Shown here: positions 14,680 through 46,600 of the stretch, one piece after another
Layout of the letters: each line of letters starts with the position of its first letter
How positions within the stretch are numbered: the first letter of the stretch is position 1
Origin: Tubiluchus corallicola
Taxonomy: Eukaryota; Animalia; Priapulida
Length of the DNA: 64,000 bases
Assembly: GCA_030141605.1 (NCBI GenBank)
Contig: JAQGDQ010000001.1
Span: forward strand, 620,001-684,000
Direction: 5' to 3'
Notes under the pieces: model-generated
Seen by the model: only the letters and a program-made list of their open reading frames with translations
What the model was told of the DNA's origin: nothing
Database searches by the model: none
Position numbers and translations under genes: made by a program

Positions 14680-17600
14680 ATGAATTCAGACGTAGGTAAG
14701 CCAGTGAAGTGTAATAGTTCCGGGAGTATGACTCTAAGTGTCAGCGTTTATTAAACTTACGCACTTAAATACATATTATGTTATACTGAAAAACATGACT
14801 TTAAGATTCTATGTATCTCAGAAAAGTAAAATAAATGATGAATAACAATACTTAAAACATTTCTGCGTAGGCTATGCATAACTTACGTGTTTCCATTGTG
14901 GTCATTGGCCAAAATTTACTTGGGCTTATAATTCTACGTAATTTTTCTTAATTAACTAATTGGTTTTTGTAAAGACTGTGCTGTCCTGGAGTTTTCCATT
15001 TACAATCGTGTGGAAGAGATGCGTCTGAAAACTCAAAAACTTCAGCTGAAGTTGTAGAAACTTTCGGTGACTAAATAGACAGCTGAAGATTATGAAAGCA
15101 AATGCTCTAAGCGCATTATTTGTTAAAACAGGGCAAATCCAGCTTGGCAAGTGTTGATACGGTGGACTTGATTCACTGTACGTTACTGCACCTGAGTTCT
15201 AGTTGAATTCTTTTTTATATCACATCTTTTTGCCAAATTGCAATACAGCAGTCTCAAGTAAAATTTGCAATTGTTCGTGTACACCAGTTTCATATTCTGA
15301 CTGAAACGAATTCTTCTAGACACTTATGAGCGTGTACAAGTGTCCCAAAAAAATCTGTGTATCATTACCATTATTGCCATAATTGTCACTATCATTAGCC
15401 TAGTTGTAGTTATTGTTAATTGTTTTCGCTGCTGTTACAGGCACTCATCCTGATCATGTCATATATTAATAAATTCTACTGCCAGCAATTACACTATGTT
15501 TATTCGTCACGTGTTCGAACATTTTATATTCTTTCTTAACGGGGTCATAGCCTACAGGGCATGGGAAAAGAACTGAGCAAATAAAGGCACTGTTGAACAA
15601 CGCAATCGGCTGTATTTTTGATAATTAAAAATTTTCCTCTAACATTAAATGATCAAGCAAGGACGTATCGGTGGCTTGCAAAATTATCCAAAAACTTGCG
15701 GCGACATGCGACGGCGAGGATGCGAGTAATAAAAAAACGTGGTTTCTCAACTCTTCGTTGGTAACAGCCTTCGAAAATAGTTTGTACAGATTATTGAGTT
15801 AAGTTCGAAAAGCATGGAATAGTTTTATTAAAAGCCTCGCTTGCGTGATTTATAGTCAATTTATGTAAACTCATGGTAATCATTGAATTATGTAAGCTAT
15901 GTGAAAGCATTAGCAAATTGAAAATGTCGTTCCTATGCAGCTGTTTATCGATTTTCCAGTTGTTATCTCATGCTTAAATTGACGATCGTAAATACATGAA
16001 TTAGAATAATGTTTTACATGGAATTTTATTTTCAATTCAACATGAAAAGCAGATGCTGTACATTATTTACAAAACTTAATGTTGCCATGAAAAGCTAGGG
16101 GTTTTTGACCTTTGAGCAGACGGCAGAATCTTATTAATGCGAACATTTCCAATGCATTAATGCTTCTTCCAGTCATGATTAATGCATGATTTGCCGGCTG
16201 ATCTGAAATCAACCAAGATTTTTAGCAAACTAGATTTTGCATAACGCATGTCACTTAACTAACTTTTTACAAAAGAAAATTTAAGACTAAGTCAGAATTG
16301 CATATGATGTCTTTGAAAAATGACCATTAAATTTGCTTTTTCATAAGCCGACGCCATTTTTATTCCGAGGCATTTATTGATTGGCTAAACTCAAGATCGT
16401 TGAGCATTTCATTCTAGTGATGTTACGTTAGCGTTAATAATATTTTTGTGTCTGTTCACCTGCTTTCGTCTGTAGTGAAATGAAATGAAATCAGATTTAT
16501 AAAAATATATAAAATATGATCGATAAGATATGGTGTTCTGTAGTGTGGTATGGTATGGTATGGTATGGTATGGTACGATATGGTATGGTATGATATGGTA
16601 TGGTATGGCATGTTATAGTATGGTAAGGTAAGGTAAGGTAAGATAAGATATAGTGTGACATGGTTAAAGGTATGGTATGATATAATGTGGTGTAGCGCGG
16701 TATATCATGGCATGGCATGATATAGTACTTGTAAAGTGGGGTAGGGTACGTAATATACGGTACAGACTAATATTAGTTATCATAGTTAGGTATAATGGGA
16801 CTTGATGTGATGTGTGATGACTGACAGGACGCGGCATGACATAACATGATATGGTAAGATATGAAATAAGACTACACAAAACAAAGTAACAGAAATAAAC
16901 TGATTTAAAAAGTGCATGGAATCTTGTACTATTTAAAATCACCTATTACTGATACCTTACAATAACTTTATTGAAATTACTTACCTTATTGCAACATATA
17001 ATAAGTAACAACATATCTCTTGCAGCGAGACTACCACTACTTTTTATAGAAATACAAGCCCAATAAACACCCTTTGTGCTAATGCATGCAAATGACTTAG
17101 AATGGATGGGAGTCGACATATCTTTTGTGACTGACTGGAATAATTAATGCAAAACGAAAATGACAGTCTAGTGCGATATAAGTGGTTTCCTGGCTTCAGA
17201 GCAAATTAATGATTGTTTAGTTTGCTGATCATATTTACTATATGCAAATATTATACGGGTAATTACATTCTAACTGATATGCGCATGTAAATTAATTACC
17301 AAACTTCTTGACATTATTCCTATTTTACAAAACCTTAATGCATTTTCAGGAATAAGTAATGGGCAGGCTAGATAAACTAAAAACAAAATCACACAACTTT
17401 GACTTTATATTTACGTAGCTGAGTTGTAGGCTTGTAGTGTTAGTGTAAAGTATATTTCAAGAACGTAAAAGTAAAGCCGCATAATTTTTACTTTATATGC
17501 GTTTATATGGGTTGTAGAGTTAATATAAAGCGTTCTTTCAGCTCCCATGCACTGCTCTTAGAAACGTACTTTATACTCTCTTTGACTTTATTAGAAGAAC

Positions 17601-20600: not shown

Positions 20601-23600
20601 GTGACCAACAAATAACAACTTTATTAAATTTCAAAGACGAACAAGGAATACTGAGCTAACCACATTGAATTGATGAATCTACGAAAGATGTAAAAGCAGA
20701 AGATCTCATTGCTCGCGTTTGTGCGTCCAAACGTTTTTTTTATTTTCAAGCCAATCAAACTAGGCAAATGACTAGTAGTACGAAGGTCATTATGATACAC
20801 TTGTTGTATGTATTATACATGGTTGTGGATAATATATGTTTAACAGCGTACTGATTTTAATTTATTTTAATTACAGGAATTTCCTCAGCAATAATGACAA
20901 ATGAAACCACTGGGCCAATATTAAATGGTTCAAAAGTCGACCAAGAGGTGGCGCCATCTTGTCACGAATCTACTTATGATGAAACGTTAATCCACAAGGG
21001 AAGTTATATTTTGATGATTACGTTCATTTATTTATTCATTGGTTCGTTCAATCATTTATTTGCTTATTCGTTCACTCGTGTGCTTGTTTGTTATTATTCA
21101 TTCATTTTTCTTTTCCAATATTATCTCCGTATCATCCCCGCTGTTTTTCCTGTCCCACCTTCTTCTCTCTCTTTCTACTACCTCACCAACATGCATGCAC
21201 TATTACACTATGTACACAAATGTACGCTACACTAGTACATTTGCTTAAAAAATTATAGCTTACCTAAAATGCTAATAACTTTTTACTACAGATAAATGTT
21301 CTCCAGAATAATTAGTTGGTTGTCATGATTTCTATAGTTAGCTATTTTACTACGTTCAAGTGTTTTTTCCTACATCCTATTAGTATATGCAATTTAATGC
21401 GCATTGTTACATACTAAATTGTAAAAATTACCAAGTGTGTAAAAGCTCACTACTTTTGTAAAAAATGAAAAACTACTTTGTCAAAAATTACTGGCTTTTA
21501 TAAAAAAAACCTGGGTCGCTATTATTGTAAAAACGTTAGCCACTTTTCTAAAGCATGCCGTTTTTTACAAAAAATAGCCACTTTCGTAAAAATGTCACTA
21601 GTTTCGTAAAATCTCCAACCAATTTTTGTAGCGAGGTTACTATTTTTTAAAACATTTCCCACTTTTGTGTGAAAACAATCGTGTGGTTAATTTTGCAAAA
21701 GCGTTAACCACTTTTGTCAAAACAGTAGTTTTTGCCTTGTAGTTTGATAACTGACATGTATTGCCTTGGGCTGATGATATTTGACGTTGTTTTATAGTAT
21801 ATAATTAATTGGTAAGCAACTAATTGTAGAAATTATATTTTAAATTAAAATTTTCATTTCTGTAGGCAAGGGTGACATGACTTGTTTTACTTTTATAGAG
21901 TTCACAAAGATTAGAAGAAGTTTGGCTAGGTTAGGATGTACCTTTTAATTTAAGTCGCTGTCGTTGCTTAATGGCCGGCTAATGTGGCAGTTCGTTGTTT
22001 TCTATTAGTCAAGTTGCCATTCAGACTCAATGGCTCCCTGGTTTTCTATGCAGCGGCACTCGCTCGTCGCACAGTACCGTCTGGTCTTAAAAGAGAACAT
22101 TGTTACCGTACCTTTTTAGAAAGAATCGTTTTGAATCTTTAATTAGATCTTTTATTTGAATCAAAGGAGCCACTACATGCCCCATCTTCTGCTAAAAAGC
22201 CCACACTGTCCTATCACTTCATTGATTATTAAGGCGATTTTTGTTGTTGCTCATAGGTCCTCTGACTCTGTATAAATCTTATTCATGGTTTTTGGGCGTT
22301 TCACGGAACATTTACAAGAATTCTAGGCTTTAAATTGTGTCAACCCTGCCCTCTATGATTAATTACTTCCAAATTTTTGACATAAGCCGCCTTACTTACT
22401 AATTGCGGCCTAGTCTGGGCTTCCCAGTAGAAGACAGCTCTTACGTACCTTCTCAGGCTGCAGTGTTGGCTTCAATAAAAAGTGTTTATTTTTATATAAA
22501 CCTCCGTATTAATGGTCTAATGTTTCTCATTGACCAAATTCGATTTGGATTTTGTAAGTAATTTACCACTAGTGGTAAATTTTGTAAGTTTGAATTCGGG
22601 GATTTGAAATTGAATATTGAAAAATCTTATATCACATCACCAGATTCCTGCAACATTTATACTACTCTCTCTTGTGGGAATGCTTTATCGCAACGTGCAT
22701 GGTAAGAATGTAGTGAGAAAATATTGCGCAAAATTGTGCCACCATGATCATGCAATGCACGTGCTTCATGTATTTTTGTATCTGGTGTAAATTAATATGC
22801 AAAGAGACCATTCTTTATATTAGTGGCGAGTTTTACAAAAGTGGCTAACGCTTTTACAAAATTAGTGACCCAATTTTTTACAAAGCAGGATTGTTTTTTA
22901 CAAAAGCAATAGCCTCTGGTTTTTCAACGGTGGGCAAGATTCTTTTATAAAATTAGAGACATTTTTATTAAAGCTGTTATTTTTTACAAAAGTAGTGAGC
23001 TTTTATAAACTTGGCAATTTTTACAATTTTGATTACAACACGCGTTCCTCGCTGGATCTCCAAAGCTGGCACAATTGCAAAAGCTGTATAATTTGATTTC
23101 ATGTAATTTTATGAATTGCCTATTTCATTTTAGACGATTCTAGTTGGAGATAGCGGAGTCGGGAAAACTTCATTTCTTGTGCAATTCGATCAAGGAAAAT
23201 TCACCGCTGGTTCGTTTTCCGCTACCGTCGGTATAGGATTTACGGTGAATACATAATTCAATTTGCAATTTTTCAATTAAATTTTGTTTTTCATCTATTA
23301 GTACGTCGTATTACGTGAAGCAGCTCAGCAGCGCCGTGTATCATACGAATCTGACTAGTACTCACGGTACAAAATTTTCGCCTGATTTTATGTTGTTTGA
23401 ACAATTTTCTTTATTGACACAGTTTATTTTTGTGTTACTTGTGCCTATGCAATTGCGTAAACAACATAAATCGCGTGGGGGGGGGGGGATTGTCAACTAA
23501 TCACAGCGAATGATAGGAATCATCAGATTGGAATCATGTGAATAGGACAAACTTTTAGTAAATGTGCGATTATTTAGAGACAGAGCAGTGTAAATAAACA

Positions 23601-25631
23601 AACTATTCACTAGAAAGCAAGGTGGAAGCAAAGACAGCAAATCACTAATTAAAATATGAGGATGAACAATACTGTACATGCCTACATGTAGAACGATAGC
23701 GTGTCAGCAAAATGTGGTAGATATTGCATGACAGAAACATCAGATAGAGTCCATGGACTACGATTACGGCATTAATAAGTCAACAGCTCACTCTCAACAA
23801 CAATAGTACTAAATTCGACTAATTTATCTTCACTGAAACGTGACTAATTTATGTTAATAGATTATTACTGCCAGATATTTAATTAATACCTGCTACTCGA
23901 TTATGAACTAGAATATCAGAACAGCCTATGACATGGGGAGTTATATGGCAGTTATATTCTTATTGAATCGTACTAATTACTGTATTACTTCATTATCTTG
24001 TCACTACCATGTTGACTATGTAAGGTCCGTCAAGAACGCTGAAAAATGACTCAGCAACTAGATCTGCATCTAGATCGCTTCTTCCTATTTGGGTAGTCAC
24101 TAAATGAACATGACTGTGCTACAGGCAGCTGAAGTTTATATGCTGCGGTGTATGTGTGGTCTAATCAGCTGATATCTGTAACTTTTTAGTAGTCTGCGAG
24201 CACTATGTTAAGTTTATTATTTAATTTTGTTAAAGTTGTGCAATTAGGTATTGTGCATTTAGTTGAATGTATTTTGTTTAAAATAACATTTCTTGAGTTT
24301 GTCTGCTGTTCAACGTTCACAACCGACTGGCGAGAAATGGAATTTTGATTTCATGGTCAGGTTACCGAACCGCTTGCCGAATTTGTTAAGACTTATGTAA
24401 GCCTTATGTAACGTTATTTAAAATTAACATTCAATTTTAAACAGCATTTCAAAGTCAAACTTTGTGAATGTTAAGAAGCCTACTAACTATATACTTTAAT
24501 AAACACTATTTTGTTCTGCACAGTAGTGTCTGGCAACGTCCTGCTATGTACAGTGCTGAAGTCGATATATTATATTACCACGTTATAAAACAACGTCAAA
24601 TTTCAAATTTAAAAAAAAATAGAAACTTTTACTACTCCGGAAAATACAATATGTTTTTTAAGTTTTTAATGGGTTCAATTTTTCTTGAGGTCTTTAGCAT
24701 GTTTCATCCATCAGCAATATCTCTTTTTTGTCTAAGTGAAAATAATCTAATCATGTATGTACGCACTTTCGCAGTAATATTTGGTATGTTTAAATATATT
24801 CTGCATACGCGTTTACGGTAATTACATCGGTGGTTGTGGAATAGCCAGCCAGTTAAAGTGCCTGATTGGCCATTGTGAGGTGGAATCCTCTAGGTGATTG
24901 ACGTTTTGCGATCCCTTTATTCCACGTTGTCTGTGGCGGTTCGTCTAATACCGATGACGTCACGATCAAGGCGCGCACTTCAAAACCCATAGGATGAAAA
25001 GCAGTCTGTTTCGCGGCGAGAAATTTGAGTTCACTCACATCTTAAGGAAGCCATAAATTTAATGAAAAGGTATGCGCTTTTACTTTTACTGACTGTAAAA
25101 GCATTAATTTAAACATTACATTACAAAATGCTTCCATGTGCCTTGCAAGTGATAGCCTCTTATATGTGTAAGTTTTAACAATTGTATTGTGACCATCCGA
25201 TACTTACATCATTCCGCTACGGTTTACTGTTTTAACTGAGATCAAATCTTTTTGTTGGTAAAGGGATCACATTGAATACCATTGGGAATATTATACCGTA
25301 ATAGCACAGATTTAACAACTTTATTAACTGAAATCAAAAACGCTCTAGGCGTTCTGTAGAAAGGTAACGAATTGTCATGCAAATTTTGAAATTGTATGAT
25401 TTCTGCTTTTTCGGCAGTTTATAACTAGCCGTTGCAAACACACAGTAATCTCAAAGTAAAGCCTGTAAGATGGACAGTTCGGAACGCTGCATTATTGAAA
25501 CGTAGTGCCATCTATTGGGTGCATTGAGTTGTTGTTTGCCATCAATACATGTAGTATCCCACTCTCACAAATACTTCATTTGTGCTGCATGATCTCGATC
25601 CACAAACAATATACCCATAATATATATACTG

Positions 25632-25675
<44 letters not shown>

Positions 25676-28600
25676 TTATCAGAAATTATAGTTTAACGGA
25701 AGAATGTTAGGAGTACATGTACGTGGGCTAAATTTACAACTAGAAATCCAGGGAACTCTATTGCTGTAGCATTACAAATCAGGTTTTGCAATTATAATAT
25801 CAGTTACTGTTATCTAATTTTTCGTAGGCTTGGTAATTTTGAGTCATCGATGCAATATACGTGATTATATACCAACTATTAGGCCCAAAGTTGTAGTTTT
25901 ACGGAATAACCCTCGAAATTTTTGGCAAGCCCTTTGGGGCTTTCAATAATTTTGAGGGTCGCATATTGCATTTTTTTGTGTTTATCGCTAAAATATATCA
26001 AGCATTTGAATGATTATGAATGATTGGTGTCACTAGTGACTAATTAATTATATGTGAACTAATATGTAAGTTCAGTGTAACAACTAACAAGTCCAACTTG
26101 TCTAGCGAATTTTGTGTTTCAAGTTTTATTTAATTACTTTGATATTTGTCTAAAATTACACCTAAAATCACTGTCCTCATTTTGTGCAACTTCATTTCGC
26201 GTACGTTTCTTTCTGATAGAAATAACGATGTCCATTTTTGAAACAATTTGCAAAAAGCCAGCAAAATGAGCAAATGCGACATTTTCGTCGAATTTGACAG
26301 TTGCACGCGTATTGCTGGCTAAGAGAAAGGAAAACTTGCAAAAGAGCTCTTTACAAAACTGCTGGTAAAAGCTGCTTTGACTGAAATAACTGTATATGGC
26401 TTCGCACTGTCCCTAACCGATTCTCTTGGCGTGCGCATTAAACTACTGTTCCTCTTATGCGTGAACGTCTGTCAACGTTCGACTACAGGCATGCTCGCAT
26501 CCTGTGTCTGAGTGGTACACCTGTGATGGCTTAACTGCAATGATTATATTTAAAAGGTATGTCTACGCCTGTCACTCCGAATGGACATGTAAACAGAGTC
26601 GGGTCCCTTTCTCCTGTAAGCGAATACTATGACTTCGCATGTAAGGTAAGTGATTTTGGTATTACTATTATGGTTTAGGATTGCAAGTACTGTCATAGTG
26701 TTAGTGTTTTTTTAGAATAGTGATGAAATTAGAATTACAGTTTATCACACATTAGTACAATACAGTACAGTTAATACAAGCCTCAAAGCATAGCTGTGCA
26801 CAGAACGAAAAATTAATTTATACTGTAAATGGGCAGCACTGAACTCTATACCTGCGGATAATTCTACGCCCCACATATATAATCAGCAGATATGCACCAA
26901 TTCGTTTATACCAAAAAATACAATAGAATCATCGAATTTATGTTATACTGATCAACAAAAATTGAAATCACTTCAGTTTTGTTGTGAACTCTGACTGAAA
27001 GGGTATTATGGTCCCAGACTCGGTTTTTTTGAGCGAGCGAGGGGGTGTTTCGGGGAATTAGAACTAATTTTCGGCATTGTATACCCGCTTTTTGCCAAGG
27101 TTTATGCAATGTAGCACTTCGGCTAGGGCAATAATTTAACGAAAAAACAATTTTGTGACCTTCGGTTTGAGCCGTTAACTTTCGTGCAGAAAACAGTAAG
27201 AAACACGGTCTTGTGTGAAAAATATTACTGAATTCGACCAAGTAAAAACTAACTATTTTTGACACTGTCATAGGTAAAGGTCACGAAAAACGAAAGGCCA
27301 TTCTTCTAAATACGCTTACAAAAGCAAACTGTTGGTAACTTTGTATAACAGAGAGTCATCTAGCTCATGTTGTTGATTAATAGATGGTCTCAGAAGAAAG
27401 ACGCACACAGTAGCTTGCCAACTTAATTGCTTGATATCTGTTGCTTTGTGTAACACATTATTGCAAGAAAGGTTAAGGTGTAATTGCAGCAAAAATGATA
27501 TAAAATACTTCACCCTGAACAGCATATTCAAACTTAGCAGGCTAAGAACTATATTATTAACCATTTTTTGCAATCAGAATGTATCATACAGCCTTAGCCC
27601 AAGAAAATTTTACGCCCAATATCCGCACTGTTTGCAGTTGCTGAAGTAGGATAGCCTTTTGCAAACAGTCCAAATACTATTATACACACTACAGTTATGT
27701 GCCCATGAAAACTTGCTGTTGAAAGCACGCTTATATATAATGGCAGAATTGACCACAGCATTAGACAAAAATGATTTATAAACTTAAAAATACCATTATA
27801 TCAAAAAATAATAAAAAATGTAAACAATAATAAATAATGAAAAAATAAATAAACATTTCAAGATCAGATTATACAACGAATTTTGACGCTAAATCTCGTT
27901 ACTCGATCGAAAGGTTAATGTTCTGGCTTCCCTGTAAATGATTGTGGATTGGTAGTCAGTATGGGCTCTTGTGCCCGTTCACACTGATTGACATGAAAAT
28001 TGGAAGTAATTTGAAACATTTGAATCGATTACTGTAAGTGCTGTTGAAGTATTCGTAATGGCCTCAACCAAATGAGTGCTCTTGCAGAGTCACGGTATTT
28101 GTCACAGATCTTCAACCAAAACGTTCAAAAAATGTAAAACCGCAAAAACAGATCGAGTTTTAATAGAAAGTGTTTAAAATTGTAAAACATGATAGAAATC
28201 GTTTCGTATGTCAATATTAGTTTTTTCGGCTTGATGCTGAAGCAAAAATGTTATTAGTTTTATTTTTTGCATGCACAGTATCTAATGAACCATAGCTAAA
28301 ACAGCATGTGGCACCAAGAAATAACGCGTACAGACAGTTTGGACATATATAGGCTGGTTATTATTTCTTAATCTGAAATTTCTAGTTGTAACTTGCTGAC
28401 GCTTTCTTTTATACCTTTCATTTGGTAAGTACTCTTTAAAATTAATTTCAATTAGTATGTATTACGGCAAGCTTTGACCAAGGCATTTATTGAATCGGTA
28501 GGTGATGCTGATTGGAGATAGTGGCGTGGGTAAAACTTGCCTCCTAGTCAGATTCAAAGATGGTACATTCCTCGGCGGAAGCTTTATTTCTACCGTTGGC

Positions 28601-31600
28601 ATTGACTTTAGGGTAAGAACGTCAGAAATTTCTCATTATAATTCAGCCTGGTTAAAGATGCTAAAAGACATCTTTTCTATGCATGCATAAGCAAGTCTGG
28701 TTGTATTAAATTGTGGATAACTGCGACAGCTCTAGTTGCTGTTGTTGTTGGCCAGTCACCTGTCGCAACTTCTAACTTAGATGTTGTGTTTTATGGTACC
28801 TTTCCCGACTTAAGGTTGCTCTGTAATGTGTAATGTGTAATGCACGCCTTCTACCGCCTGGGTCTGCATTTTACATGAGTAAATGCGTTCTGGTATTGAT
28901 ATTTGAGTGAACATTATTTCGTAGCTTTGTTTCGATTTTATTCTTTTTTTTAAACCAATGTTATATACTTATATATCTCAGGCACTTTTTGCCTTTCGCG
29001 TATTTGTAATTTTTGGAATAAGAATTTGGGCAGTGTATGTTAATTTATAGGGCGCCCGGCCAGAAAAAACAATTCGTTATTGCCAAAATATGTATCCTGT
29101 TCTACCTTGTAAATGCAAATTGTGTGCGTAGTTCCGAGGGATTAAAATTATATTAGTTACGACTCTGTTAGCTGTTTTTTAGATACATTACCAGGTCTTT
29201 CATGATTAAGCATATACTTGGTAAGAGTTAATGTGTAGGTTATGCTAGATTAGGGTTACGGGATTGCGCAGATGATCCATGTTTTGAAACTCTTTTTGAC
29301 CACTGAATGATGACCGTAGAGACTCAAATGAGTAAGCTCACAATCTAGCAAAAGCCGCTTTGAATAAACGAAGACCCCTTTATTCCATGCATTTCATGTG
29401 GGATTCCACTCCGCATTTACTTGCTTTCAAACTAGATGAATTCGCACTATTTGTTATCATCCATTTAGATTATGACATACTGATATCAAATAAATTACGT
29501 TTTGCATTGCTATTAGTTACCGCTAAACAAGCCAGCCGACCAGCATGCGGCATGTGTCATACAGCAGACGGAACGCAATGAAGCCAGGCTCAAATTAATT
29601 ATTCCACGATGAATCTGAAAGGCGTAAAACTAATTGGTGACTGTGTCGTAAATAACCGACCATTTTAACGTTAATATTTGCCCATCTCTGTCGCTCTGGA
29701 TAATTAGTTCATTGCCTGAATAATTGTTCTGAATGTTATAATGGATTCATATTTGCCAAGCAGGTGGGTTGATATATGATATAGATAGATGTAGCATATT
29801 GGTCAGTAATACGCTTGCATTAGCTAGAGTACGGTCAAACACTTGGCTATTCAATGATACTTGTAGGCCCACTGTGTCATTGTGTAAATTTGGGGTATTT
29901 ACGACGATTATACGCCAGTGTAAATCAAAATGATTGGACATCTTAGCCGCACGATTGAAATCTACAAATTGCACAGGATATACCATAAGTCAGAACAGTA
30001 AAGAAGGTTACTTTCTCATTTTGTGTGTAAAAATGGAATTTACATACACCCAAGTACAGCAATTAGCTTATATATCTAACAGTTTTCGTACAGTTTATTC
30101 TAACCATACCTAACCATTTATTCGAGACCCTTGGCTTTCTTGCTTGATTAAAACAGGCCGCGTCAAGGGACCGCACTTCTGTCAAATTAATTTTACACGC
30201 GTTTGTCTTCTGTACAAATTCGCGTGCATCAATGTTTCGTCTCTGATCATACTGTTGATATAAAGTCATAAATAACCGGACATTTCTATTTACATTTGTA
30301 ACCTTGGGGATTGCAGGATAAATTGCAAGCAGGGCGAGCTCACAGTTTGTAAACAGCAGTATGTGCTAGTATTGTTACGCGGCTTACAATTTAACAACCG
30401 TAGAACATAAACACATTTAATACTGGAAATCAAGACAGCATAATATATGAGAAATAAAGAACATCTTTTTACAGTTCTCCAACATTGTCTGTTGCAATAT
30501 TACTCTCCTTGTCGTGGGAATTTTCCCAATGGGCATTTGATTAAAATTACCAATGTGTAGAAAGTGCATTTACTGTGCACGCGACGAAGTGTTAGTCCTT
30601 TATGCAGATTTGTTTTTAAAAATCTACGTTCAGTAGGTCTAAGACTACATTATTAACAAAAAGAAAGCAGTTTGACCACTTTTTAGTGTAAAAGATGAAA
30701 TTCAAAGAACGAGTTCTTCTATTTTCTGTGTTTACGTAGACTATAATTACACGTATTTCGACTACAATTTATGCATAAATTACTGTGGCGATACATTTAT
30801 AAAGGGATTACAATATTTATTATCAGTACTGACGACATACAGAACATACTTTTGATTTACGAATAATGTAGTGATTTGATCTCATTCGTAATAACTGCTA
30901 AAGTGAAAGCAACTATTGCACAGTTTTCAATCTGGGCTTTTGTTGTTTTTTTAATGCAAACTTACAACGTTTTTGTGAGCAAAAAGTTTATGTGAAGACA
31001 TGGAGAGGCAGCTTGATATAAAATGATTACTGTTTCGTTGAACAATATAATGAATAGATTTAGGGTAACTACATTTTTGAATCATGTATTCAACGTATAC
31101 GCTAGTGTTAAGACTTTAGTGATAGGACCATACAAAATATAGCACACGAATTTGCTATCCGAGCTGTATGTGTATAATCACCTGATCTAATCTGAAACAG
31201 GATAGCTAAGTTAGCGGAAATTACGCTTCCTAACAGTAGCAATCCCAGTAGTCATTTCCTGCTGTATAACTTGAGAGCCTCGTCAAACTGTATGTATCAG
31301 GGTTACGAATATGATTGACCATTATCTACCAGCCTAAGAACGTTGCAGGTCGTTTCGGCTTTTCCTAAAGTTTTTGAGTGAAACTGCTTTTTCACTTTGC
31401 TGAAGTTCGTTATCAAATTCAATATGTCCTAAACGTAATATCCTTCTTGTGTAAAATAGTCATTTATTTAGGGCAAAAAAAGATTTACTGAATGGTAAAT
31501 GATGCTATAACTGTAATAAAGTCATGAACGCTTTGGTCTGCGTCAAAGCTATGCAAACTTTGCGAGTGTTGTTCGTTAAAAATAAATTATCAAACTCTGT

Positions 31601-34600: not shown

Positions 34601-37600
34601 CGGTTTTGTATCTCTCAACCGAGATCAATAAATGAACACGCACAAAATTTCGTTAGACTTTGATGCCCCCAGTAAAAGTCTTTTATTGTTTTAGTCACTG
34701 GGTTGGTTCCATGCGACCTGATTGTGTTTTTACCAACATGGGCAATCAATTGCTGTTGCATTAATAATTCTAAATTATTTAAAGCCAGCGCACAAGTACT
34801 TGGATAAAATCATTATTTATGCTGAATCACGTCTGGATGCTTTGGTTTATAGTAATATGCTTCTCTGTATGTTCTTTTCAAGGTGAACTTTGTGTCTTCT
34901 GCTTGATTGCTCAGAGGATGCAACACTGAGTTGCGTCAATAAAGATGAAAATAGCACCGTTTTCTCAGTCTATCGTAACATCAGTACATCTGAGAATTAC
35001 TGATTGCAATTTAAACATTTAAACTTGTCTCATTTTAGCTGTTGCTACATTCAGTGATAAACACAGAGAAATGATATATTTTTTAATTTGGACAATTTGC
35101 TGCGACTGCACTTGTATGCGCAGAAATTCGGACATTTGCGCATGGTAATTTGGCAATTGCACGATTATTCTCAGCTGCAAAAAGTCCAGTTATGAAGGCT
35201 ATGTGAACTATCACTTATTAACTACCAAAGTTCCACGTTCAAAAATGTCATGGCCAAAGACACTATTTTTGATTATTCTCCACACGAAAGAAATTACTTC
35301 ACGAAGCGAACTGAGAACTGCGTAGTTTGAATTGTACAGGAGTTTATAAAATAAATCAGTTCCAAGGGTGTACTTTTGGGGAAGGTAAAGGACACTACTG
35401 ATGCAGATATGATTTCGTTGAATTGCCCTTAATTGCAAGAAATACTATTCAAGGATTAATGTAATTCTTTGTAATAGGATGAATACAGTGGGTATACTCA
35501 ACGTTATATTTTAACGAAGTCAACTTTTTTGGTCTTTTTGCGGTCTTGAGATACTGTCAAGAAAAAAAATGTTTCAATTAGCACGACTACCAATAACACA
35601 AAAACGCTCCATCTTTGTAAACCGATGTTCAGAAATGCCCAAGTTAGCGGCGCTAGCCAATTTTGAGTTCTGGGAAAGCTGTCACTGTGTTGCAGGCATC
35701 AGTAATCAGTAATCACTATAATCTTGTTTCAAACTTTTTTTTTCAGAATAAAGTTGTTAATGTTGATGGGACAAAAGTCAAATTGCAGGTTTGTAAAAAT
35801 TGTTCTTCAGTTTCTTGGTTCACGGTCATTAACAATTTAGTCTCATATAAATGCTATTTATATAAGTTTCATATAAGCAAATGAAGATTTATTGAATATG
35901 TGTGGCGCTTGGGAGCACATGCAGAGTATTAACATTATTTTGCGCAAATGACAGCAGCACCTGTTAATTAGTGATTTTATACGGAAAAATACCATTTACG
36001 CGTCCTAACATGGCTCTTATTCTGCACTAGATTTGGGATACAGCAGGACAAGAACGATTTAGAAGCGTTACACATGCGTACTACAGGGATGCACATGGTG
36101 AGTATGGGGTGTCCCCAATGTCAATTTAACCGATGGCCGCTTAGAAGAGGGTGTCACAATGTTTACGACCTTCGTTCGTCCAGAAAGGTCATAAATTTTG
36201 CTTCGTCAATAAATAAGTAAATAATAGATACAAGTAGAAGGAGGGCACTCAGTAGAGGTACAGAACTACGCTCTTACGTGTAATAACGATTGGGCAAAAT
36301 TTTAGTTTTTGTAACTTGACCTTTGACTTTTTCCACCAAAAAGCAGTGGGTTTCCAGATCTTGCTAAGACCTATCACTGTCGCCAAGTTTGATGATTATA
36401 ACTTCATCTGTTTTGATTTTATAGGTTTGTTTTGATATTGTCGCATTGACCTATGGCCCTTTGAATCCAAAATCAGTGAGTCTCAATTCCTACCCGGATT
36501 AATCCTACCCGTGGTGACAAAATAATGCATTTAAATTTATTTTTGGCTTGACACATGGCTTTCGACAGAAAACAAGCAAAAGTAAAAACATTGATAAGAC
36601 AAGCATTATTTTTTAGACCAAACTGCTTACATTCAGCTTTCCAAAGGTACCTTTGGTCCTGGTGATCCATGCACTCTAGCATTTGACTAAGCTTGAGTAA
36701 CCTAAACTTTCATCACCATGTGATGGAGTAATTGGTTTGTGTCATTTGACTCTGTCTGTTCAAGCGATGTGTCGCAATTTTCTTTTGTGAATTACTTTCG
36801 TGAGTTGGTTTTAAAAAGCACACTACTGTTTTCTGTGAAGGAAACGTTTTTTGTCAGTCGGAAAGCGATGGTTCGCGATTTAAGGCAATAAGTGTATTAT
36901 CTGGCTGCCGAAATACGTCGATATATTTATTGTAAATTAACATCTCTGTCCTCCATTGAACAGCAAGAAAGACTTAATATTTTTTCTTACTATTCTTTTT
37001 GTCATTCATATGGGTTCGGTTATCTGTTACAAAAAATGGTTCTTTTAATAAACAAAAGGTTGCAAACATTTAAAGGTTTTTTGCTATTTAATATTTTGAC
37101 TACTGACCAGTCGTTCACCAAACTGATTCAAGAATGGTTGCATCATGCAATTTTGAAGAGCGGGGTTCACAAACCAAAACGTCACAGGATCTGTGCCTGA
37201 ATGTAGACGAAAGCAGAATAATCTGCTGTTCACTGAACTTTTTGAATCCAGGTAATACGGGTTTATGAAAAAACTGCTTGTTTATTGGTGTAAGTTATTT
37301 CCTCTAAACACCAGTTTATTCTTTTTATTGAACTTGGGTGCTAATTTCGTCGTGCTGACAAATAGTGTCATCTTTGAGTGCCAATTAGTTGGTATAGTTG
37401 GCAAATAATAGCAAAAAAGTTGTCTGAAAAGAAAAGCCGTTTTCTTACAAAAGCTTGTTTATCTTGATCTTTTTATTTCATTTGAATAGCTGTTTTTATT
37501 TTAAATTATCAAAAATTGTCATTGTTTGAGTGTTAAAGCATTTTAATTCTGTCTGCGCGTTGCTGTTTTTCTTCTTCTGGGGATGGCTACGATAGTAATA

Positions 37601-40600
37601 ATCCTCTAGGCCTTTTGCTAACAGACTTGCTCGAAGTACTGTTAACGCTGGAAGTACTTCGCTCGAATAGATGGTTTAGTGCACTAAAAAGCCTATTAAA
37701 CCGAATTAATCCATCATTAATAATGATCATAAGCTGTAAAGGAAATCCTAGTTTTAAAAAATAGATCCATTTTAATCGCAAACATAATTTCACTTTTTCA
37801 CAGTTCTTTGTTAATATGGAATTATCCAGGGATGTTTAGTTATGTAGCCAAAGTTACTGTAGATGTTACCTCAAACAAACCACTGAATCACTTAAACTTG
37901 ACTTACTGACTCAAACTAAAGGCCTGAACATAAAATTTATGTTCCCTGAATTAAGATAACTCAGGAACATTAATGACCGTATAAAATTCTAAGCTAAGCT
38001 GTAATTATCTGTTTACTTCTACAACAATATGGTTTATTTACGATGTTTTATATGTCTTAGATCAATGTAAAACCGCTAGTAAGCTTCTGCAGTATTTATT
38101 ACGTGATTCTCACATCTTTCATGTGCGTCTAGAATTTTAAAATGCGAGTCCCAGCTGGCTTGAACCACGTAAATGCTTTTACCAGAACAAGCATTGAGCC
38201 GTATTAAAGCGAAATCTTGACACATCGTAGCAGTCGTATATCAACTGGTCTGAATGTATGAACTCTAATGACATGCGCGGTACTGCCTGATGGTAGCTAA
38301 AGCTACTGCATCAGAATTTGAAAAAAACTTGCAAAATACAAAATTGTGAAAAACTAAATTTTTTTGAAGTGTCAAAGACCATTATGATATCCTAATATAA
38401 ATAAATACGCTATTCACACTTTCATTATGTATTGTCAATGAAAACCATAACTAAAATGTCACATTTCTGCACAATATACATAAATAGAGGAACAGTTTAA
38501 TGCCAATATAAGATTTATTATAATTTCAACATTGCAATTAGCTAAATTTTCACAGCCAACATGCCCAAATGGATCACAACTGGGCTCAGTTACGACTGGC
38601 CATTCATTATGACCCTATTTCCGTTTTGTCCACCTACAAAGGGCCACATGTGGCCTACCTACTGAAGACAAGACATACACCCAGATGGTGTGCCTAATAA
38701 AAATCTAGGTACTACAGGGATCAACATGGGCTTATTTATCTGAAAGGTAGGTCCCATCTAGGATTCTTGGGCCCAAGTGAGCTTGCTCAGTTAAAATAAA
38801 GGTCTTATGCACGGTGTCTATGTGAGCTTATCTAGTTATAACATAGCTCCTATATGGAGTCAAAGTAGATTTACACAGTTAAACCTGAGCTTCTATGTGG
38901 GCCCATATATACTTAGGTGCATAATATGGTTAACCGTGAAAAATCGTGAAATACCGCACCAGTTTCATATAATCTACAGGGGCGCCATAACATCAAGCGC
39001 ATACAGGAAGAATAGACCGGACGTGTACAGTCTTGCACACAAGAAATTAAATTTGTACGTTTTTTACAAAGTGTCGACTGGTAACAAAAATTTACAGTTC
39101 TTCCTGCACAGGAGCATTGCAAAACTAAATTATTATTATTTGTTAAGATTTGGCCCATAATCCTCTTCACCGATTACTCTATTGTTTTTTCTCCAATGTC
39201 TCCTACGAAAATAACCTAAAATAACAACAAAACATCTTTGTTAAGCATTAACGAAATTAGGACTTTATTTTCGAAGTCATAAGCCAAAAGCCGCTTGCAG
39301 TCGTTTGTTTGATTCTGTCAAGAAATTCATACGAAATTTCATAACACTGCATTACGAAGACTTTGTTGAATTTAAACATTTGGTCATCAACAAAATGATT
39401 ATATGTGAACTGCACTGAACGTTTATGTCCAGTCTTGCTGACGGCTGCCCAGCAGTGGAACTTATGCAGTTTAAAGTAATTTCTTTACAAATTTTTCTGA
39501 GTTTCCAATTTTTAAATAAGGCCCTACACAAAATATTACTTTGAGTTTACTTTACTGTTATCACTTAAACTTTGCAAAGTATTGTCAAAAAGCCGTAAAG
39601 TTAATTTTTACTACAGTGGTGCAGAAATTTTCAGGCGCGGTGGTTGCCGCCGTTTACTTGAAAATTGAGACGTAACTGCCTAACTAGTGAACTTCATGAC
39701 ATTTCGGAAGAGCTCGTCGCTTAAACTAATTCAAACTTCTGCATCGTACCTAATGTTCGTGCAGAATATCGTAAAATTAGTTGTCTAGTTTTTTTGTAAA
39801 AACTTATAATGTTTTTGACGGAACTGACAGCGAGCTGTTTTTCTTCAACCGTTGAACGACGTCATTGGTGGAAGAATGGCCGTTCAAATGAGCGCGCCCA
39901 AGCGTGAAATCATCGGGACTTTAAAAGTGATTTTACTATTTATACAAGGTGCTTAATACAGTTTTATTACTAAATCTTCGTAACTTTTTTCGCGGCGTAA
40001 ATTTTCGTCGGCAGTGTGCCTGCAGCCTATCTAAGGATTACATATTAATATTATTATCTATGGTATTGACGGCCTCTTCGCGTACTCCAATGTTATGTTT
40101 TTCAATAAAATACCACTTGAGGGGTGGCGATTTACATTAATTATAAACTGCATTTTGAAAAACTGCATCTCATAGTGTTAGTTTGTTCAAATTACGTGTA
40201 TTTTTTATTTCAGCTTTATTATTATTATACGATGTTACGAGCAGACACAGTTTTGATAACATACGGGTAAGTATCATTCTTGTAATTATTACAATTTATT
40301 GATTACAAATTAATAATTGATTACAAATTACTTTTGCAACGAAAATGGGTCGCTATGTTATATTCTTTATTATGGTTATAGGAAAGCAAAAGTCAAAATG
40401 ACCTACGGATCTAAATTATCTTCACCATAAGTGTTGTTTTTAAACTTGATTTTTAGGAATAAGTTATTGTCTTAAGAACTTGATTTCTTTATAGTTTCCT
40501 TACTTGGGTAAAGTCGCCTGCTTCCTGTATGTGTATAGTAAGAGATGTATTGCAACAGCTGAGCTATGTATGATAGCTATTTTATAAGGTTTTCATGGCA

Positions 40601-43600
40601 ATTATGGTCAAACCTTCTGGAGTCACGCTTTAGCTACCCGATGACTAATTGTGCTCGAGGACCGTTAACTAAAGGACAAGAAATACGTTTATTTGCATTT
40701 ATAAAGATAAAAAATTCGTATTAAAATTTTGTATCACCTATATATTACCTTATTACGCACAGAACTGCATTAGCAGCAACGCTGTGTAGAACTTGAAAAT
40801 TTAAATTACCACTACGACTGCTAATTAGGCGCAGCCATATTGACCGTAGGTCGTTTGAAACAAATTTAGACAATATTGCATAAAGTCTGAAAAATAATCA
40901 CAGCATTCGTAGCGCACATTTCACTAACTAAGTAAAAGAATAAATTACTGTAGCTTGCCAGTAAAATTAAAAACATGTTTTTGGTGAGTCTGTGGTGGCG
41001 CACACTGAGAAGGTGAGTCAATGATATTTTACCAGTTGGCACGAACATTTTAAACTAAGAATTTTCTTTTCTAGTTACATAAGTTTTCAAGCAGATAAGC
41101 GTAATGCTGAGTTACATAACATTGTGTGGAAAGTTTTTTGGGAACATATTTTAAAATTTCCTTTTCTTGCCCTTTAAATGTCTAAGCAAAAAACTGAATA
41201 TGAAAAATTGTTAGGAAATTATAGGTAATCAATATACGTTTTGACTATTAATCAAAATGAGTTATGGTTTAGAAATGGTTTTGTTTTTCTTCAAACTGAA
41301 ATATATAGCTACTTTTAGAAGCTGCAATGCTCTTCTTGCACTTAGAATATGGTATTATTGTCTTTACTACAATTCTTGACACGTACCCCCTTCTCTCATG
41401 CAATAAATTAAAAAATTGCGATCTCTAGCCTATGTGATGGGAGATCTTTTAAATACCGTGCTGATGAATCAATAACATTCGATCCACTATACGTTTTCCG
41501 TAGTGCAAACATCTCCCCGATGAGAAAATGAAATTGGCTTCTAGCTTACTGTTTACTGAATCACGTTCTTTCATTACTTGAAATTTATTCCATTATTTAC
41601 TTGTTGCCTATTATCTGAATGCGAAAGTTACAGATGAAACTCGTACATATGACAGAAATTGATATTCATGAAAGTTGAAGGGATTATTGTTAACAGGCTT
41701 GGTTGTCAGAGATCAACGAATATGCACAGGAGGATGTTGTTATCATGTTAGTAGGCAATAAGTGTGACTTGTCGGAAAGAGCTATACGAACCGAGGACGG
41801 CGAAAAATTAGCAAAGGTAAGCCTTTAATGCCCAAACGTACCTTTGTGTGTATTTGGATTCTTGGTAAAAAGTTTGGATGTCTGTAATTAGCAGACTGAG
41901 CAGATAACGTTTAATATTTATCTCAGGTTTTTAGTGCAGCGCCGCCCAATGCAAAAGCCAAGAATTACAATTTTTCACTTAAATTTTCAACCTGTAGCTT
42001 TGATGCCGTCATTAGCAAATTGTTAATAGTGTGGATGCGCCCAGGTAAAATATTCCAAAAGAAAACCCAAATCCTGCATAACTTGATACGATAAACCTGA
42101 AGTGTAAAGTATAAAAGTGTTGTAAAGCAAAATGACAATAGAAAAAAAATTAATAGGTGAAAATAAGGACTAAGTGTAGCTTAAACAAAAATAAGTCCAA
42201 TGCCTAATCTGCGTTACAAAGATTAATTTACAGTATCACAAAATTAGTAGTTGTTGTGTAAATTTAGAGGAAAAGATGACAAAATTTAAATTAACAAAAC
42301 TTGCAATTTGGTGGCTAAAGTGGCATCCTGGAATGACAAAAAAACAGTAATTATTACTTTCACCAGCGTCAAAAACGGCGAACAGAAATCATACACGTGT
42401 AAGTTCTGAGCAGGTAAATCGGGTCAGATGTTAGAAACGGCGGTTTGTTTGTTTATTTTTGTAATTTATCTAATCGAAAAAGCGGTTTGCTAGACTTGAG
42501 CTTAAATTTTGCCCCACGTTCAAAAACCGAATGTTCGTCATAGACCCAAATAAACGTGAAATTATTAGTATTGGATTTTTCTACATGGTTGTATTGTTTA
42601 GCTAAAGAAAAACCAGGAACATATGATTAACATACATGCAAAATCATGAAACATAATGATAATTACATAATGGTATTTACTATGAAATGATTAAGTAGAT
42701 TTGTTACATTCGTTCCTCATCAGCTTTTGGCCTACTACATACTAAATAATGGCCGAGCTACGTTAAGGTAAAATTAATATAAATTAAACGTTTACAGGAC
42801 AACGTGATATAACAAGATATAACAATAGACCATACATAGTTACGCAGGCCTCATAGTATCTTCAACAAGGAGCCTCCGGGAAAGTTTGGTGACCTTTAAT
42901 GGGCTTCTGACAGCCGACTGGCTATAATGCAACTAATTTAAAAGGTTAAACTAAAAAGACTTAAAATGTTCACTAGGTGCCACTAGCATCTATGCCATTC
43001 GTTTATCATTTTATAAGTATATTCTGCATTCAACAGTGCACATTTGCAGTTTTGGCCTCAAAACGTCTAATCTATTAGATGCATTAATTGAAAAAAAGTA
43101 ATAACGAGGTGACAGCATGCGGAAGTTTTATAATGATGTCACTGGATTTCCCGCTGTGCTGCTTTATTATTGCAGCATAGTTAAATATGTTGATTTCCGA
43201 TCGTTCCTGCTTCCTGAATGTTTCACTGCCAAGTTGTTCAAAATAGCAAATATTTTTTGGTTTTCCAAAGGATAAAATTGTAAGACATTGTTTGATTCGT
43301 GGGTGTAACCGATGCGAAATGAACTGGGCAGGGCAGAAAGATTGAGTTTGTTCGTTATACTTTACGGATGACGTGCGAGGGTTTTGAGTCTGAAATGTAC
43401 ACTGCCTGATTGTGGAGCAGTAGTGTCGCGGCTTTGTCTTCAAAAGGCATAGGTGTATGGCATACGTAAACAAATTGTTATTAGCTACGACTATTGCTAT
43501 GTTTATTGGTCTGTAATAATTATTAAAATATGTTGTACAATATTCAGCCTATACAAGTGTGTACTCTGTAATGACCAGGAATAAAATAATTTGATTTAAA

Positions 43601-46600
43601 CTACATGTAATTTCTTGCCACGAAATTTTTTGTTGTGGGTTCGGTGGCCGAGTAATCTAGATTGCAGACTGTTTTAGAGTGCAGACTGCAACCATGCAGG
43701 CGTGGCTTCGAGACCAGCGACTGCGTCCTTACCGGTATTGCTGTGAGTGTTGTGTTGACTGAGCAAGCATACTAACAAATGTGCTGCCAGTAGTGTCACT
43801 AAGTTAACAAGTTTCATTTTGTCTGAACTGCAAAGAAGTAGTGCATTAAGTTAATGACAAATGTTCATGGTTATACTTAGTTAAGAATTATGTTGATCAA
43901 TATCGTTGGTTTATATCTTGCTAACAGTGTTGTGTTTATCCAAAAAGTGAGTCTGAGCAAGTTTCACTTCAAACCTGCGTTATATTACGTATTAGTAAAT
44001 GAGTACGTTTCATGCAGACATTAATTGTAATTTCATCAGAAGAAATAAACTTGTAACTTCTAAAATTACTTGCAGTTATTGCAAATACTACCACTGCTAT
44101 GAGGTCCGACCGGAAAAAACTTACGGCTGTTTCTTTGGCCCTGGAGTTGAATCAGAGAATCACTGGAAACAAAAACATTGCCTGTGTAGAAAAACCGTCA
44201 GTTGTACAACTCCTAACTAAAGCGCGCTTGAGAGGCTCAAATAAAGGCTTTGGCTTTATCTGAAATCATCATATTGTTGTACAGTAATATTTTATATATA
44301 TATATATATACATACATATATATATATATGCAAATAACTTGATAGCATATATAAAAACTTTTAAAATTTACACAGATGAAAATTATGTATACAGATGATA
44401 ATTTTGTTCATTTATTTAATAGACAACTTTACATCACTATTTAATCTGCCATGTTAACCAGTGCCCAAGTTAACCGAATCTTATTGCCAAACAAAGGGTA
44501 GCTGACTTGATGATTTTTTAATCAATTCATTACCCTATCTCGTTGACTTTATATTTACTTTATCAACACATTTATTACTCTATCTTTGTATATTTTTATT
44601 ACATGTATACGTTGCTGAAAGGTTATAGAGAAAAATAAACTTCATTTGACTTGATTCGAAATGTTTTTGTGAGTTACAATATAAATAACTAGAACAAGTA
44701 TTGTTATTGCAAAAACACTCTATTTTGCAGAAAAAAAATCTATAGTAACTCACTAGCTTCTAATAATATAGGTTAAACATAGTTTCCATGAAATTTAGTT
44801 AGAATGGTTAATACGTTAATGTTGTCTTTATTTACTGTACGTGCATTAATCCAGAAAGTTGTGGCTAGCAGCTAATTCAGCTATGATAATAAGAATTCAT
44901 CACACTTGTATCGTTCATAAAGGCCAATAACAGTCCATACAGGACTGGACTCGCAGTTTCTATATAGCTTCAGTTTAAAAAGATGATTCCCTCCTACAGT
45001 CCTACTTGATGTATTCAATGTTACTTTTGGGTGTCGCCTGTCTTTGATGTGTAGTTTGGTGTACTTTGTAAATTTAGTACGAGAAATCCTGGTGCAGTAG
45101 GATTTTTATTTGTGCTTTACTATTGAACGCGCTAGAGATACCAGTGATGCCACGTCAAGACTAATGCAGCTTATATTTGCCTGTACAAAGCTCTTCGTCA
45201 GTTTTCAACATGCTATGATTATAAACAATGTATAAACTGCATTTTGTCACACGCTCATTTTGCCTTTAGCGCTGTTTATTTAATATATAAGCTTATATAT
45301 AGTACACCATTATCAACGAATCTAAAATGTAAGTTGACAATTGACAACTTCAACTAATTCTGTAAAACTGTAAATAATTGTGGGGATGAGCACATTAAAC
45401 TACCGCTGTCAGAATAACAACATTCGTAGTGAAACCTTGGCTCTAGGAGTAAATTTAAAGTAGAGTTGTTTGAATGTTCGTTACTGAAATGAGTATTGGC
45501 AAAATACTCACTAGGGAAACGGAGAACACACTTAAAATACTGACATAACATTGTAAATTGCAAAATGCTTACTCAAAACGTGCAATGACAAAACGAAACT
45601 CGCATAAAATCAAATGCTTACGTACAAATGGTCTACATTAACTACTAAGGGCAGCATGTAATGGTAACGTTATTGTACTGGTAAAGTGTTAGTTTCAAAT
45701 ATTCAAATGGCGAAGTGTGCTCTAGTGAAATGTGTCACTGGCAAAATGAGATAAAGATTCCAAACAGCTTTTAAGTTTAGATTGTTGCGTTAATTTTATT
45801 AACCACCTCCGTTAATCCTTTTACAGGATCATGGTGTACCTTTTATGGAAACGAGTGCTAAAACGGGAACTAATGTTGATCTAGCATTTATGGCTGTTGC
45901 CAGGTAAATGACAATTACAATTTCAGGTGCACTTACTGAACAATAAATTAATAATCGCAAGTTAGTTGTGCCTTCGCAAATGCGTGCATACTAGATCCAA
46001 CGTTCTTAAATTTCGCCACATGGTAGAATGAATCACTTGTTGCAAAACATAGGAGAGGTTGCTCGAAAAAGCAGCTTGTTGCATATCACAAGCATCGCAT
46101 GTTGTCAAGCCTTTAAATTTATACCTGTTAGAATGTGTTTTTTTTTACCAAACTTCATAGTTTTGCGACGAGCGTGTGTATTGGAAGGATTTACTGAAAT
46201 AGGTCATAAAAACATTGGTCTTTGTGGGGCTCTTAGGGCTTTTTATTATGAACGCTTTATTTAATGAATAAACTTCTGTCGAAACTGTAAGTTGCTAATT
46301 TAATAGGCCTATTTATAAAATAGATTTGTAGTTAATTCTGAAGCATTTCGCAATGAAAACAATAGACGCACTAATTAATATTTTAGAAGTATGCACTCCC
46401 ACAGATTTAAGTTTTTCTTATTACATTGCTTAAAAAACGAAACAGGATATAGCGTTATATAAACAAAAACGTATGACCTATTATTAAACGGGCCAAAATG
46501 TTATTGAAGCAAGAACACTGTAAACTCAATATTAAAAAAATGAAGTTTAATTTTATATAGAATTGGACTTTTCGTCTCGCTAATTTTGGAACTACATGTA

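What the first reader, a model, noticed from the sequence alone, without database searches (positions are those of the whole stretch)
20990..21010. Non-canonical GG-AG intron apparently required for Rab isoform A
Seen: exon 20877-20998 ends CAC AAG and is followed by GGAAGT, a perfect AAG|GTAAGT donor except for +2 T>G. Joining here to 23134 gives [16 protein letters not shown], matching the recalled alternative human RAB37 isoform ([16 protein letters not shown]) and the phase-0 position of the sister intron (FACK|VMLIGD). The other 20 donors I inferred in this window are GT. The only nearby in-frame GT alternative (A|GT at 21003 to the AG at 23142-43) gives HKGIGDSG, which deletes most of strand beta-1. 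Known: GG/GA donors are very rare outside a few lineages such as some copepods and larvaceans. Inference: either a real weak donor acting as a regulatory gate, a null allele of isoform A, or an assembly error.
Basis: partly seen in the sequence, partly recalled or inferred. Interest (0 to 1): 0.8.

Follow-up and report, generated by a model that had tools for sequence, protein, structure and literature searches.

The report
Ancient Rab37 intron starting with GG
In this invertebrate, likely a priapulid worm, an old intron of the Rab37 vesicle-traffic gene begins GG instead of the near-universal GT in two separately sequenced samples, and it is likely still spliced there, weakly, to make one of the gene's two ancient protein forms; no RNA from this species was available to show it.

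Summary
Exon 20877-20998 ends AAG and is followed by GGAAGT. G at 21000 is not an assembly error: a 180x contig and a contig from another study cover it without differences. A close relative's contig-derived protein, P0084 (77 of 83 residues identical), joins HK directly to TILV, so this is the junction used there; its donor is unseen. The orthologous intron in another animal starts GT (L001), so GG is derived. The site matches consensus at 6 of 6 other core positions (1 of 20 GT donors does) and precedes the window's most U-rich donor flank. Best reading (about 0.6): a functional, weak U2-type GG-AG intron. Rivals: recent null or leaky allele (0.2), GT bypass (0.1). No same-species RNA was found, so splicing is unshown and a regulatory gate is untested. 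GG donors (human, RyR2, copepod) and the twin Rab37 exons are published; the scan noted lone GG donors in other genes of other genomes. A new member of a known kind.

The parts
14680..14695 (+). Coding part of the likely first exon of isoform A (start codon, five codons, phase-1 GT donor at 14696)
   Evidence: Only ATG+4 codons+G+GTRAG candidate upstream of exon 2a; matches 3 of the first 5 residues and the phase of P0084. Inferred, no RNA.
20877..20998 (+). Exon 2a, ends with the conserved YDE..IHK codons
   Evidence: AG acceptor at 20875-76; 37 of 41 residues identical to P0084
20996..21004 (+). The GG donor: exon end AAG, intron start GGAAGT (intron base +1 = 20999, +2 = 21000)
   Evidence: 6 of 6 core consensus positions, matrix score 7.6
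21005..21098 (+). U-rich tract after the donor, a decayed simple repeat; candidate TIA-1-type enhancer
   Evidence: U fraction 0.55-0.56; 0 of 20 GT donors reach it over +7..+70 and +7..+100, 1 of 20 over +7..+40. Contigs from elsewhere match 21023-21068 with loose ends. Function inferred.
20999..23133 (+). The 2135-nt phase-0 GG-AG intron
   Evidence: same position and phase as the 605-nt GT-AG intron of L001
23134..23244 (+). Exon 3A (111 nt; strand beta-1, P-loop, switch I of isoform A)
   Evidence: 37 of 37 residues identical to P0084, 36 of 37 to Priapulus caudatus model P0102
20948..20949 (+). Weak GT inside exon 2a, in frame with 23134; use would drop the last 17 codons of exon 2a
   Evidence: Score -3.0
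21003..21004 (+). GT at +5/+6 of the GG donor; frameshift with 23134, in frame only with the second AG (23142-43)
   Evidence: Score -2.0
22699..22707 (+). ATG followed by a GT donor inside the intron, in frame with exon 3A; candidate bypass, in sequence that behaves as a genomic repeat
   Evidence: Score 4.2; divergent contigs from elsewhere lie on 22689-22841
26559..26645 (+). Coding part of exon 2b (isoform B), canonical GT donor at 26646
   Evidence: a related run X6 covers 26468-26622 with 13 differences in 155
28502..28612 (+). Exon 3B (111 nt), the twin of exon 3A
35747..48660 (+). Six shared exons: 35747-35788, 36031-36097, 40214-40266, 41697-41816, 45827-45903, 48558-48660
   Evidence: Open frame to the stop, all GT-AG; 87% identical to Priapulus caudatus P0102 over 134 residues

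Best explanation
The intron at 20999-23133 begins GG in the DNA and is likely a working but weak major-spliceosome (U2-type) GG-AG intron, cut after 20998 to make isoform A of this Rab26/37 gene. Shown: the GG, its presence in two samples, the open frame, the junction in a close relative, and GT at the same intron in another animal. Inferred: an ancestral GT (or GC) donor changed to GG in this lineage; U1 snRNA would still pair at -2, -1, +1 and +3 to +6, U6 with +4 to +6; the U-rich tract just downstream would recruit a TIA-1-type helper; no strong GT competes nearby. Failed or shifted cuts (after 20997, 20999 or 21002 to the natural acceptor, or retention) meet an early stop and would be degraded, so the likely effect is less isoform A, with isoform B untouched.
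For: G at 21000 in X1 and in X3 of another study. P0084 joins exons 1a, 2a and 3A at exactly this point and reads on into an intron start only 2 edits from the window's (0 of 500 random stretches at 2 or fewer, lowest 5), the pattern of a partly spliced RNA from a close relative. Exon 3A has 0 of 37 residue changes against 6 of 46 upstream (Fisher p 0.025); had it been dead along the whole branch since the split, about 3 changes would be expected in the last 47 residues, chance of none about 0.05. 6 of 6 core positions, met by 1 of 20 GT donors. Exon-final AG and +3 A are the marks of working GA/GG donors in Eurytemora (PMC5714493, whole text). In human-cell reporters a GG site with otherwise full U1 match spliced at +1, and was considerably active only with upstream SRSF7 plus downstream TIA1 sites and a very weak competitor (PMC6280755, sections 4, 5); here the flank is the most U-rich of 21 donors and all GTs from 20880 to 21129 score below zero. 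RyR2 intron 75 uses GG in rat, mouse and human (PMC9033130, passages).
Against: No spliced read from this species; P0084's own donor was not seen and may be GT. GG ranks near the bottom of non-canonical donors (GC > TT > AT > GA > GG > CT, PMC6280755), and FlyBase annotated 0 GG-AG introns (PMC4528330, Table 3). The one 6-of-6 GT donor in the window is the sister donor of exon 2b, so a strong context may simply be inherited. The two samples are very alike (4 other letters in the 8 listed X3 pieces, about 2.6 kb), so a recent null could be shared by both. The matrix rests on 20 donors modelled without RNA. The U-rich tract was noticed after the fact and looks like a common simple repeat.
Confidence: 0.62

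Rival explanations
1. A recent +2T>G mutation has killed or nearly killed isoform A; the exons are intact only because little time has passed.
For: +2 changes usually abolish splicing (PMC6280755, section 5: almost none without enhancers). Low diversity between samples allows a young allele to be shared. Isoform B supplies a complete Rab. No RNA shows isoform A here.
Against: Isoform A is kept from vertebrates to arthropods, molluscs and annelid-like contigs (conservation to Drosophila published, PMC8373072), so loss is unlikely to be free; no second lesion in exons 1a, 2a, 3A; perfect context and U-rich flank are not expected of a random null.
Confidence: 0.2
2. Isoform A is made through a canonical GT bypass: the weak GT at 20948 or 20936 in exon 2a, the ATG-GT site at 22699-22702, or 21003 to the second AG.
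For: All are in frame; the 22702 site scores 4.2, within the range of true donors (-2.4 to 7.7).
Against: The exon-2a sites score -3.0 and -4.6 and would drop the YDE..IHK segment, whose last 10 residues are unchanged against P0084. 21003 needs the second AG and replaces TILV, which aligns with the strand before the P-loop of Rab26 (PDB 2g6b). The 22702 site lies in repeat-like sequence and would leave exons 1a and 2a without purpose.
Confidence: 0.1
3. GG is one allele of a polymorphism; a GT allele segregates and was hidden because assembled contigs show one allele.
For: The tool states that contigs show presence, not absence; no raw reads were available.
Against: The window, X1, X2 and X3 (two samples) all show G; no contig with T was listed.
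Confidence: 0.06
4. G at 21000 is a sequencing or assembly error.
For: None found; X1 may be the window's own source.
Against: X3, from another study and carrying its own variants, matches 20553-21193 letter for letter.
Confidence: 0.02

Closest known systems
RyR2 intron 75 gg/ag donor of rat, mouse and human (PMC9033130, passages and Figure 6 legend read)
   Same: A lone GG donor in an otherwise GT-AG gene, tied to one of two protein isoforms.
   Different: RyR2's is proven by mRNA, conserved in three mammals and follows a skippable cassette exon; here it follows a 5' exon of an alternative N-terminal pair, conservation of GG is unknown and use is unshown.
Human U2-like GG-AG introns (Parada et al. 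2014, PMC4176328, passages and supplement file 3 searched; 32 of 222,263 introns as quoted in PMC5714493)
   Same: GG with U2-type consensus around it and an AG acceptor.
   Different: Most are minor alternative sites; RAB37 and RAB26 are not in the main text or supplement files 2 and 3 (file 1 could not be searched).
GA/GG donors of the copepod Eurytemora affinis (Robertson 2017, PMC5714493, whole text)
   Same: Exon-final AG, +3 A, apparently obligatory for a full-length protein, no helper GT.
   Different: There 10-12% of introns, all recent gains; here 1 of 21 donors, on an ancient intron that is GT in another animal.
Trema orientalis SYMRK intron 12 GA donor (PMC10668435, abstract read)
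   Same: An old intron whose donor changed to a purine at +2 in one lineage or population; there it proved functional.
   Different: Plant, GA, derived from GC, tested by experiment.
RAB37 tandem-exon-duplication isoforms (Martinez Gomez et al. 2021, PMC8373072, passages read)
   Same: Twin 111-nt exons for beta-1, P-loop and switch I; reported conserved between human and Drosophila.
   Different: The passages read say nothing on a non-canonical donor.

Membership tests
U2-type GG-AG intron | GG at intron +1/+2 in genomic DNA, not an error | tested here: met
   (X1, X3 clean across the site)
U2-type GG-AG intron | U2 donor consensus at the other positions (exon-final AG, +3 A, +5 G) | tested here: met
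   6 of 6 core positions; score 7.6 against -2.4 to 7.7 for 20 GT donors
U2-type GG-AG intron | AG acceptor giving the conserved frame | tested here: met
   AG at 23132-33, no other AG within 50 nt upstream; open frame
U2-type GG-AG intron | Spliced RNA across the junction in the same species | not testable with these tools
   No RNA holder listed; X6 is a diverged relative and did not cover exons 2a or 3A; only the relative's P0084 shows the junction
U2-type GG-AG intron | Not a polymorphism with a GT allele | tested here: inconclusive
   Two samples show G, but only as contigs
Eurytemora-type genome-wide GA/GG donors | About 10-12% of introns have GA/GG donors | tested here: inconclusive
   1 of 21 here; at 12% the chance of at most 1 in 21 is about 0.26 (hand calculation), so not excluded
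Eurytemora-type genome-wide GA/GG donors | Introns are recent lineage-specific gains | tested here: not met
   Same position and phase in L001 with GT; many database ORFs read intron-end residues before TILV, showing an acceptor there
FGFR-type GA donor dependent on a canonical site | Canonical GT 6 nt upstream (as described in PMC4176328) | tested here: not met
   Nearest upstream GT is at 20986, 13 nt before the cut and weak
U12-type (minor) intron | Donor consensus with TATCCT at +2 to +7 (recalled, not from a call) | tested here: not met
   Intron starts GGAAGTT
RyR2-type regulated GG donor | Tissue-dependent use of the GG site, and GG conserved across species | not testable with these tools
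   No RNA and no sister-species DNA over exon 2a

The most novel reading that the evidence does not exclude
In priapulid-like worms the ancient Rab37 isoform-A donor has been fixed as GG and kept by selection, with a simple-repeat U-tract co-opted as its enhancer, so that a TIA-1-type factor gates production of one of two effector-binding surfaces of a secretory Rab; possibly exon 1a chooses between the 2a/3A and 2b/3B pairs and the weak donor sets the ratio.
Probability: 0.15. Interest if true: 0.65.

Novelty: new member of a known kind. Interest (0 to 1): 0.36.

Why it matters
If spliced, it is a natural case of an old, conserved intron surviving a +2T>G change, the class of change that clinical and annotation pipelines treat as a knockout, and it comes with a sister donor in the same gene as a built-in control. 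It would also mean that GT/GC-only gene models of this genome lose isoform A's N-terminus. It does not reveal a new splicing mechanism: lone GG donors and the twin Rab37 exons are published.

Tried and rejected
No whole genome is held, so donors could not be counted genome-wide. No RNA holder listed for 19500-26000; this is no evidence either way. X5 and X6 share the species label but differ by roughly 8-10% and left exons 2a and 3A uncovered: no verdict. Three searches with exon 2a, meant to catch read-through ORFs that would reveal relatives' donors, returned only P0084 or P0084 plus an unrelated repeat ORF, P0124. The Priapulus caudatus model P0102 lacks HK before TILV, but it is also broken further on, so I drew nothing from it. 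Register shifts at the three Gs were checked: only the cut after 20998 keeps frame with 23134; the cut after 20999 (GA) keeps frame only with the second AG and loses TIL. U12-type and FGFR-type readings were rejected on sequence. Paper searches with no hit: RAB37 + GG-AG, priapulid + non-canonical splice, Rab37/Rab26/alternative/isoform/exon/invertebrate; RAB37 + non-canonical splice gave one retinitis pigmentosa review, listing only. The library lacks most subscription papers. Folding the alternative junction products was not done.

Full report
Observation. The sequence at 20996-21004 is AAG|GGAAGT. The gene is a Rab26/37 with two alternative 5' exon sets: 1a (14680-14695), 2a (20877-20998) and 3A (23134-23244) for isoform A, 2b (coding 26559-26645) and 3B (28502-28612) for isoform B, then six shared exons to 48660. 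Both models are open, 236 and 219 residues. All models rest on homology, not RNA. The other 20 donors I could model in the window (Rab, a chromobox gene, a tektin gene) are GT.

Is the G real? Four runs were laid on 20400-29000. X1 (depth 179.6) and X3 (depth 22.3, another sample and study, with its own variants at 21870, 24265, 26143 and 28017) cross the site with no difference and no gap. X2 has no substitution there, though 7 of its 10 gaps were not displayed; X4's listed pieces do not reach it. X1 may be the window's source. An error is therefore excluded, but these are assembled contigs and could hide a second allele.

Is this the junction? Among the 120 listed of 584 hits to exon 3A, 74 have HK directly before the T/I-I/V-L strand, from mammals to hagfish, oyster, centipede and flies; most others show intron-end residues or unrelated model starts. 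P0084, from an unnamed 1257-nt Logan contig, is 77 of 83 residues identical to isoform A's start, joins exons 1a, 2a and 3A, and runs on into sequence that fits the window's intron after 3A with 2 edits (0 of 500 random controls). I read it as a partly spliced RNA of a close relative; a DNA copy that lost both introns is the less likely alternative (two 36-kb contigs from another lineage do seem to lack this intron). Its donor is not visible. In metagenome locus L001, another animal, the same intron starts GT, so the intron is old and GG is likely derived. The nearest named protein is Priapulus caudatus (87% over 134 shared residues, next 74%, among 87 mostly vertebrate proteins), which agrees with earlier unchecked notes that this genome is priapulid-like.

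Alternatives. The strongest GTs in the intron are 21812, 21930 and 22702 (3.1, 3.3, 4.2); read-through of exon 2a stops at 21233, before any of them, and only 22702 has an in-frame ATG. It sits in repeat-like DNA.

Signs of use. Exon 3A shows 0 of 37 residue changes against the relative, the upstream exons 6 of 46 (p 0.025), which argues against long disuse but not against recent loss. The site has 6 of 6 core consensus bases, as does 1 of 20 GT donors, namely its sister at exon 2b. The flank +7 to +70 is 56% U, above all 20 GT donors and in the top 0.3% of the window, though it resembles a dispersed simple repeat and I noticed it after the fact. In reporter assays GG sites were weak, cut at +1, and needed both upstream SRSF7 and downstream TIA1 sites and a very weak competitor (PMC6280755, abstract and sections 4-6 read). 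The anatomy here fits those needs on the downstream side; I did not test for exonic enhancers.

Mechanism. Most likely (0.62) the major spliceosome still cuts after 20998, with U1 and U6 pairing around a +2 mismatch and help from the U-rich tract; mis-cuts and retention hit early stops, so isoform A would be lowered rather than altered. A recent null or leaky allele (0.2), a GT bypass (0.1) and a hidden T allele (0.06) remain. Whether the weakness is used for regulation is untested.

Known context. GG donors: 32 of 222,263 human introns (as quoted in PMC5714493, whole text), RyR2 intron 75 in three mammals (PMC9033130, passages), 0 annotated in Drosophila (PMC4528330, passages), common with GA in Eurytemora, and GA in Oikopleura (PMC7072748, passages). 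A derived GA donor in Trema SYMRK is functional (PMC10668435, abstract). The twin RAB37 exons are published as conserved to Drosophila, with differing residues forming a surface patch (PMC8373072, passages), and human N-terminal isoforms differ by tissue (PMC9714508, passages). Human RAB37 is absent from Parada's text and supplement files 2-3; file 1 could not be searched. My searches found no report of a GG donor in Rab37 or of non-canonical splicing in priapulids. The scan has noted lone GG or GA donors in other genes of other genomes, none in this gene.

Verdict. Real DNA feature, probably a functional rare donor, a new member of a known kind; one RNA experiment decides it. Interest 0.36.

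Noticed in passing
window 26530-26558: An AG at 26555-56 with a branch-like word about 25 nt upstream precedes exon 2b's ATG and is in frame with exon 1a, so 1a might splice to either exon pair; but X6's contig runs unbroken over 26468-26622, which fits a first exon.
   Followed up: partly
window 23134-23244 and 28502-28612; proteins P0001-P0085: 76 of the 120 listed hits join exon 3A directly to 3B, giving two P-loop segments in tandem, in vertebrates and arthropods (the search favours such forms). The join is in frame here too, and the 3B acceptor has the weakest pyrimidine tract of five checked. Real isoform or annotation habit is unknown.
   Followed up: partly
P0111, P0112, P0121, P0122: Proteins called on contigs up to 36 kb read from the start codon through HK-TILV into the next intron, suggesting a lineage that has lost this very intron.
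   Followed up: no
L001:2620-2635, L002:658-673, L003:2419-2433: The exon-3A acceptors of three metagenome loci share a GTTGAY-TG-YAG ending with no pyrimidine tract, a branch-like word very close to the AG.
   Followed up: no
window 3799-7980, minus strand: Five-exon chromobox (Polycomb-like) gene with chromodomain and C-terminal box; name from recalled motifs, four GT donors.
   Followed up: partly
window 51384-63402, minus strand: Tektin-like gene (name recalled from motifs), at least eight exons, seven GT donors modelled; one internal exon may be unlocated.
   Followed up: partly
window 47000-47755, minus strand: An apparently intronless C-type-lectin-like reading frame nested antisense in the last Rab intron, seen by eye; not translated or tested.
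   Followed up: no
window 16531-16680: A pentamer repeat in intron 1a creates a run of donor-like sites, three scoring 7.3-7.4, between exons 1a and 2a.
   Followed up: no
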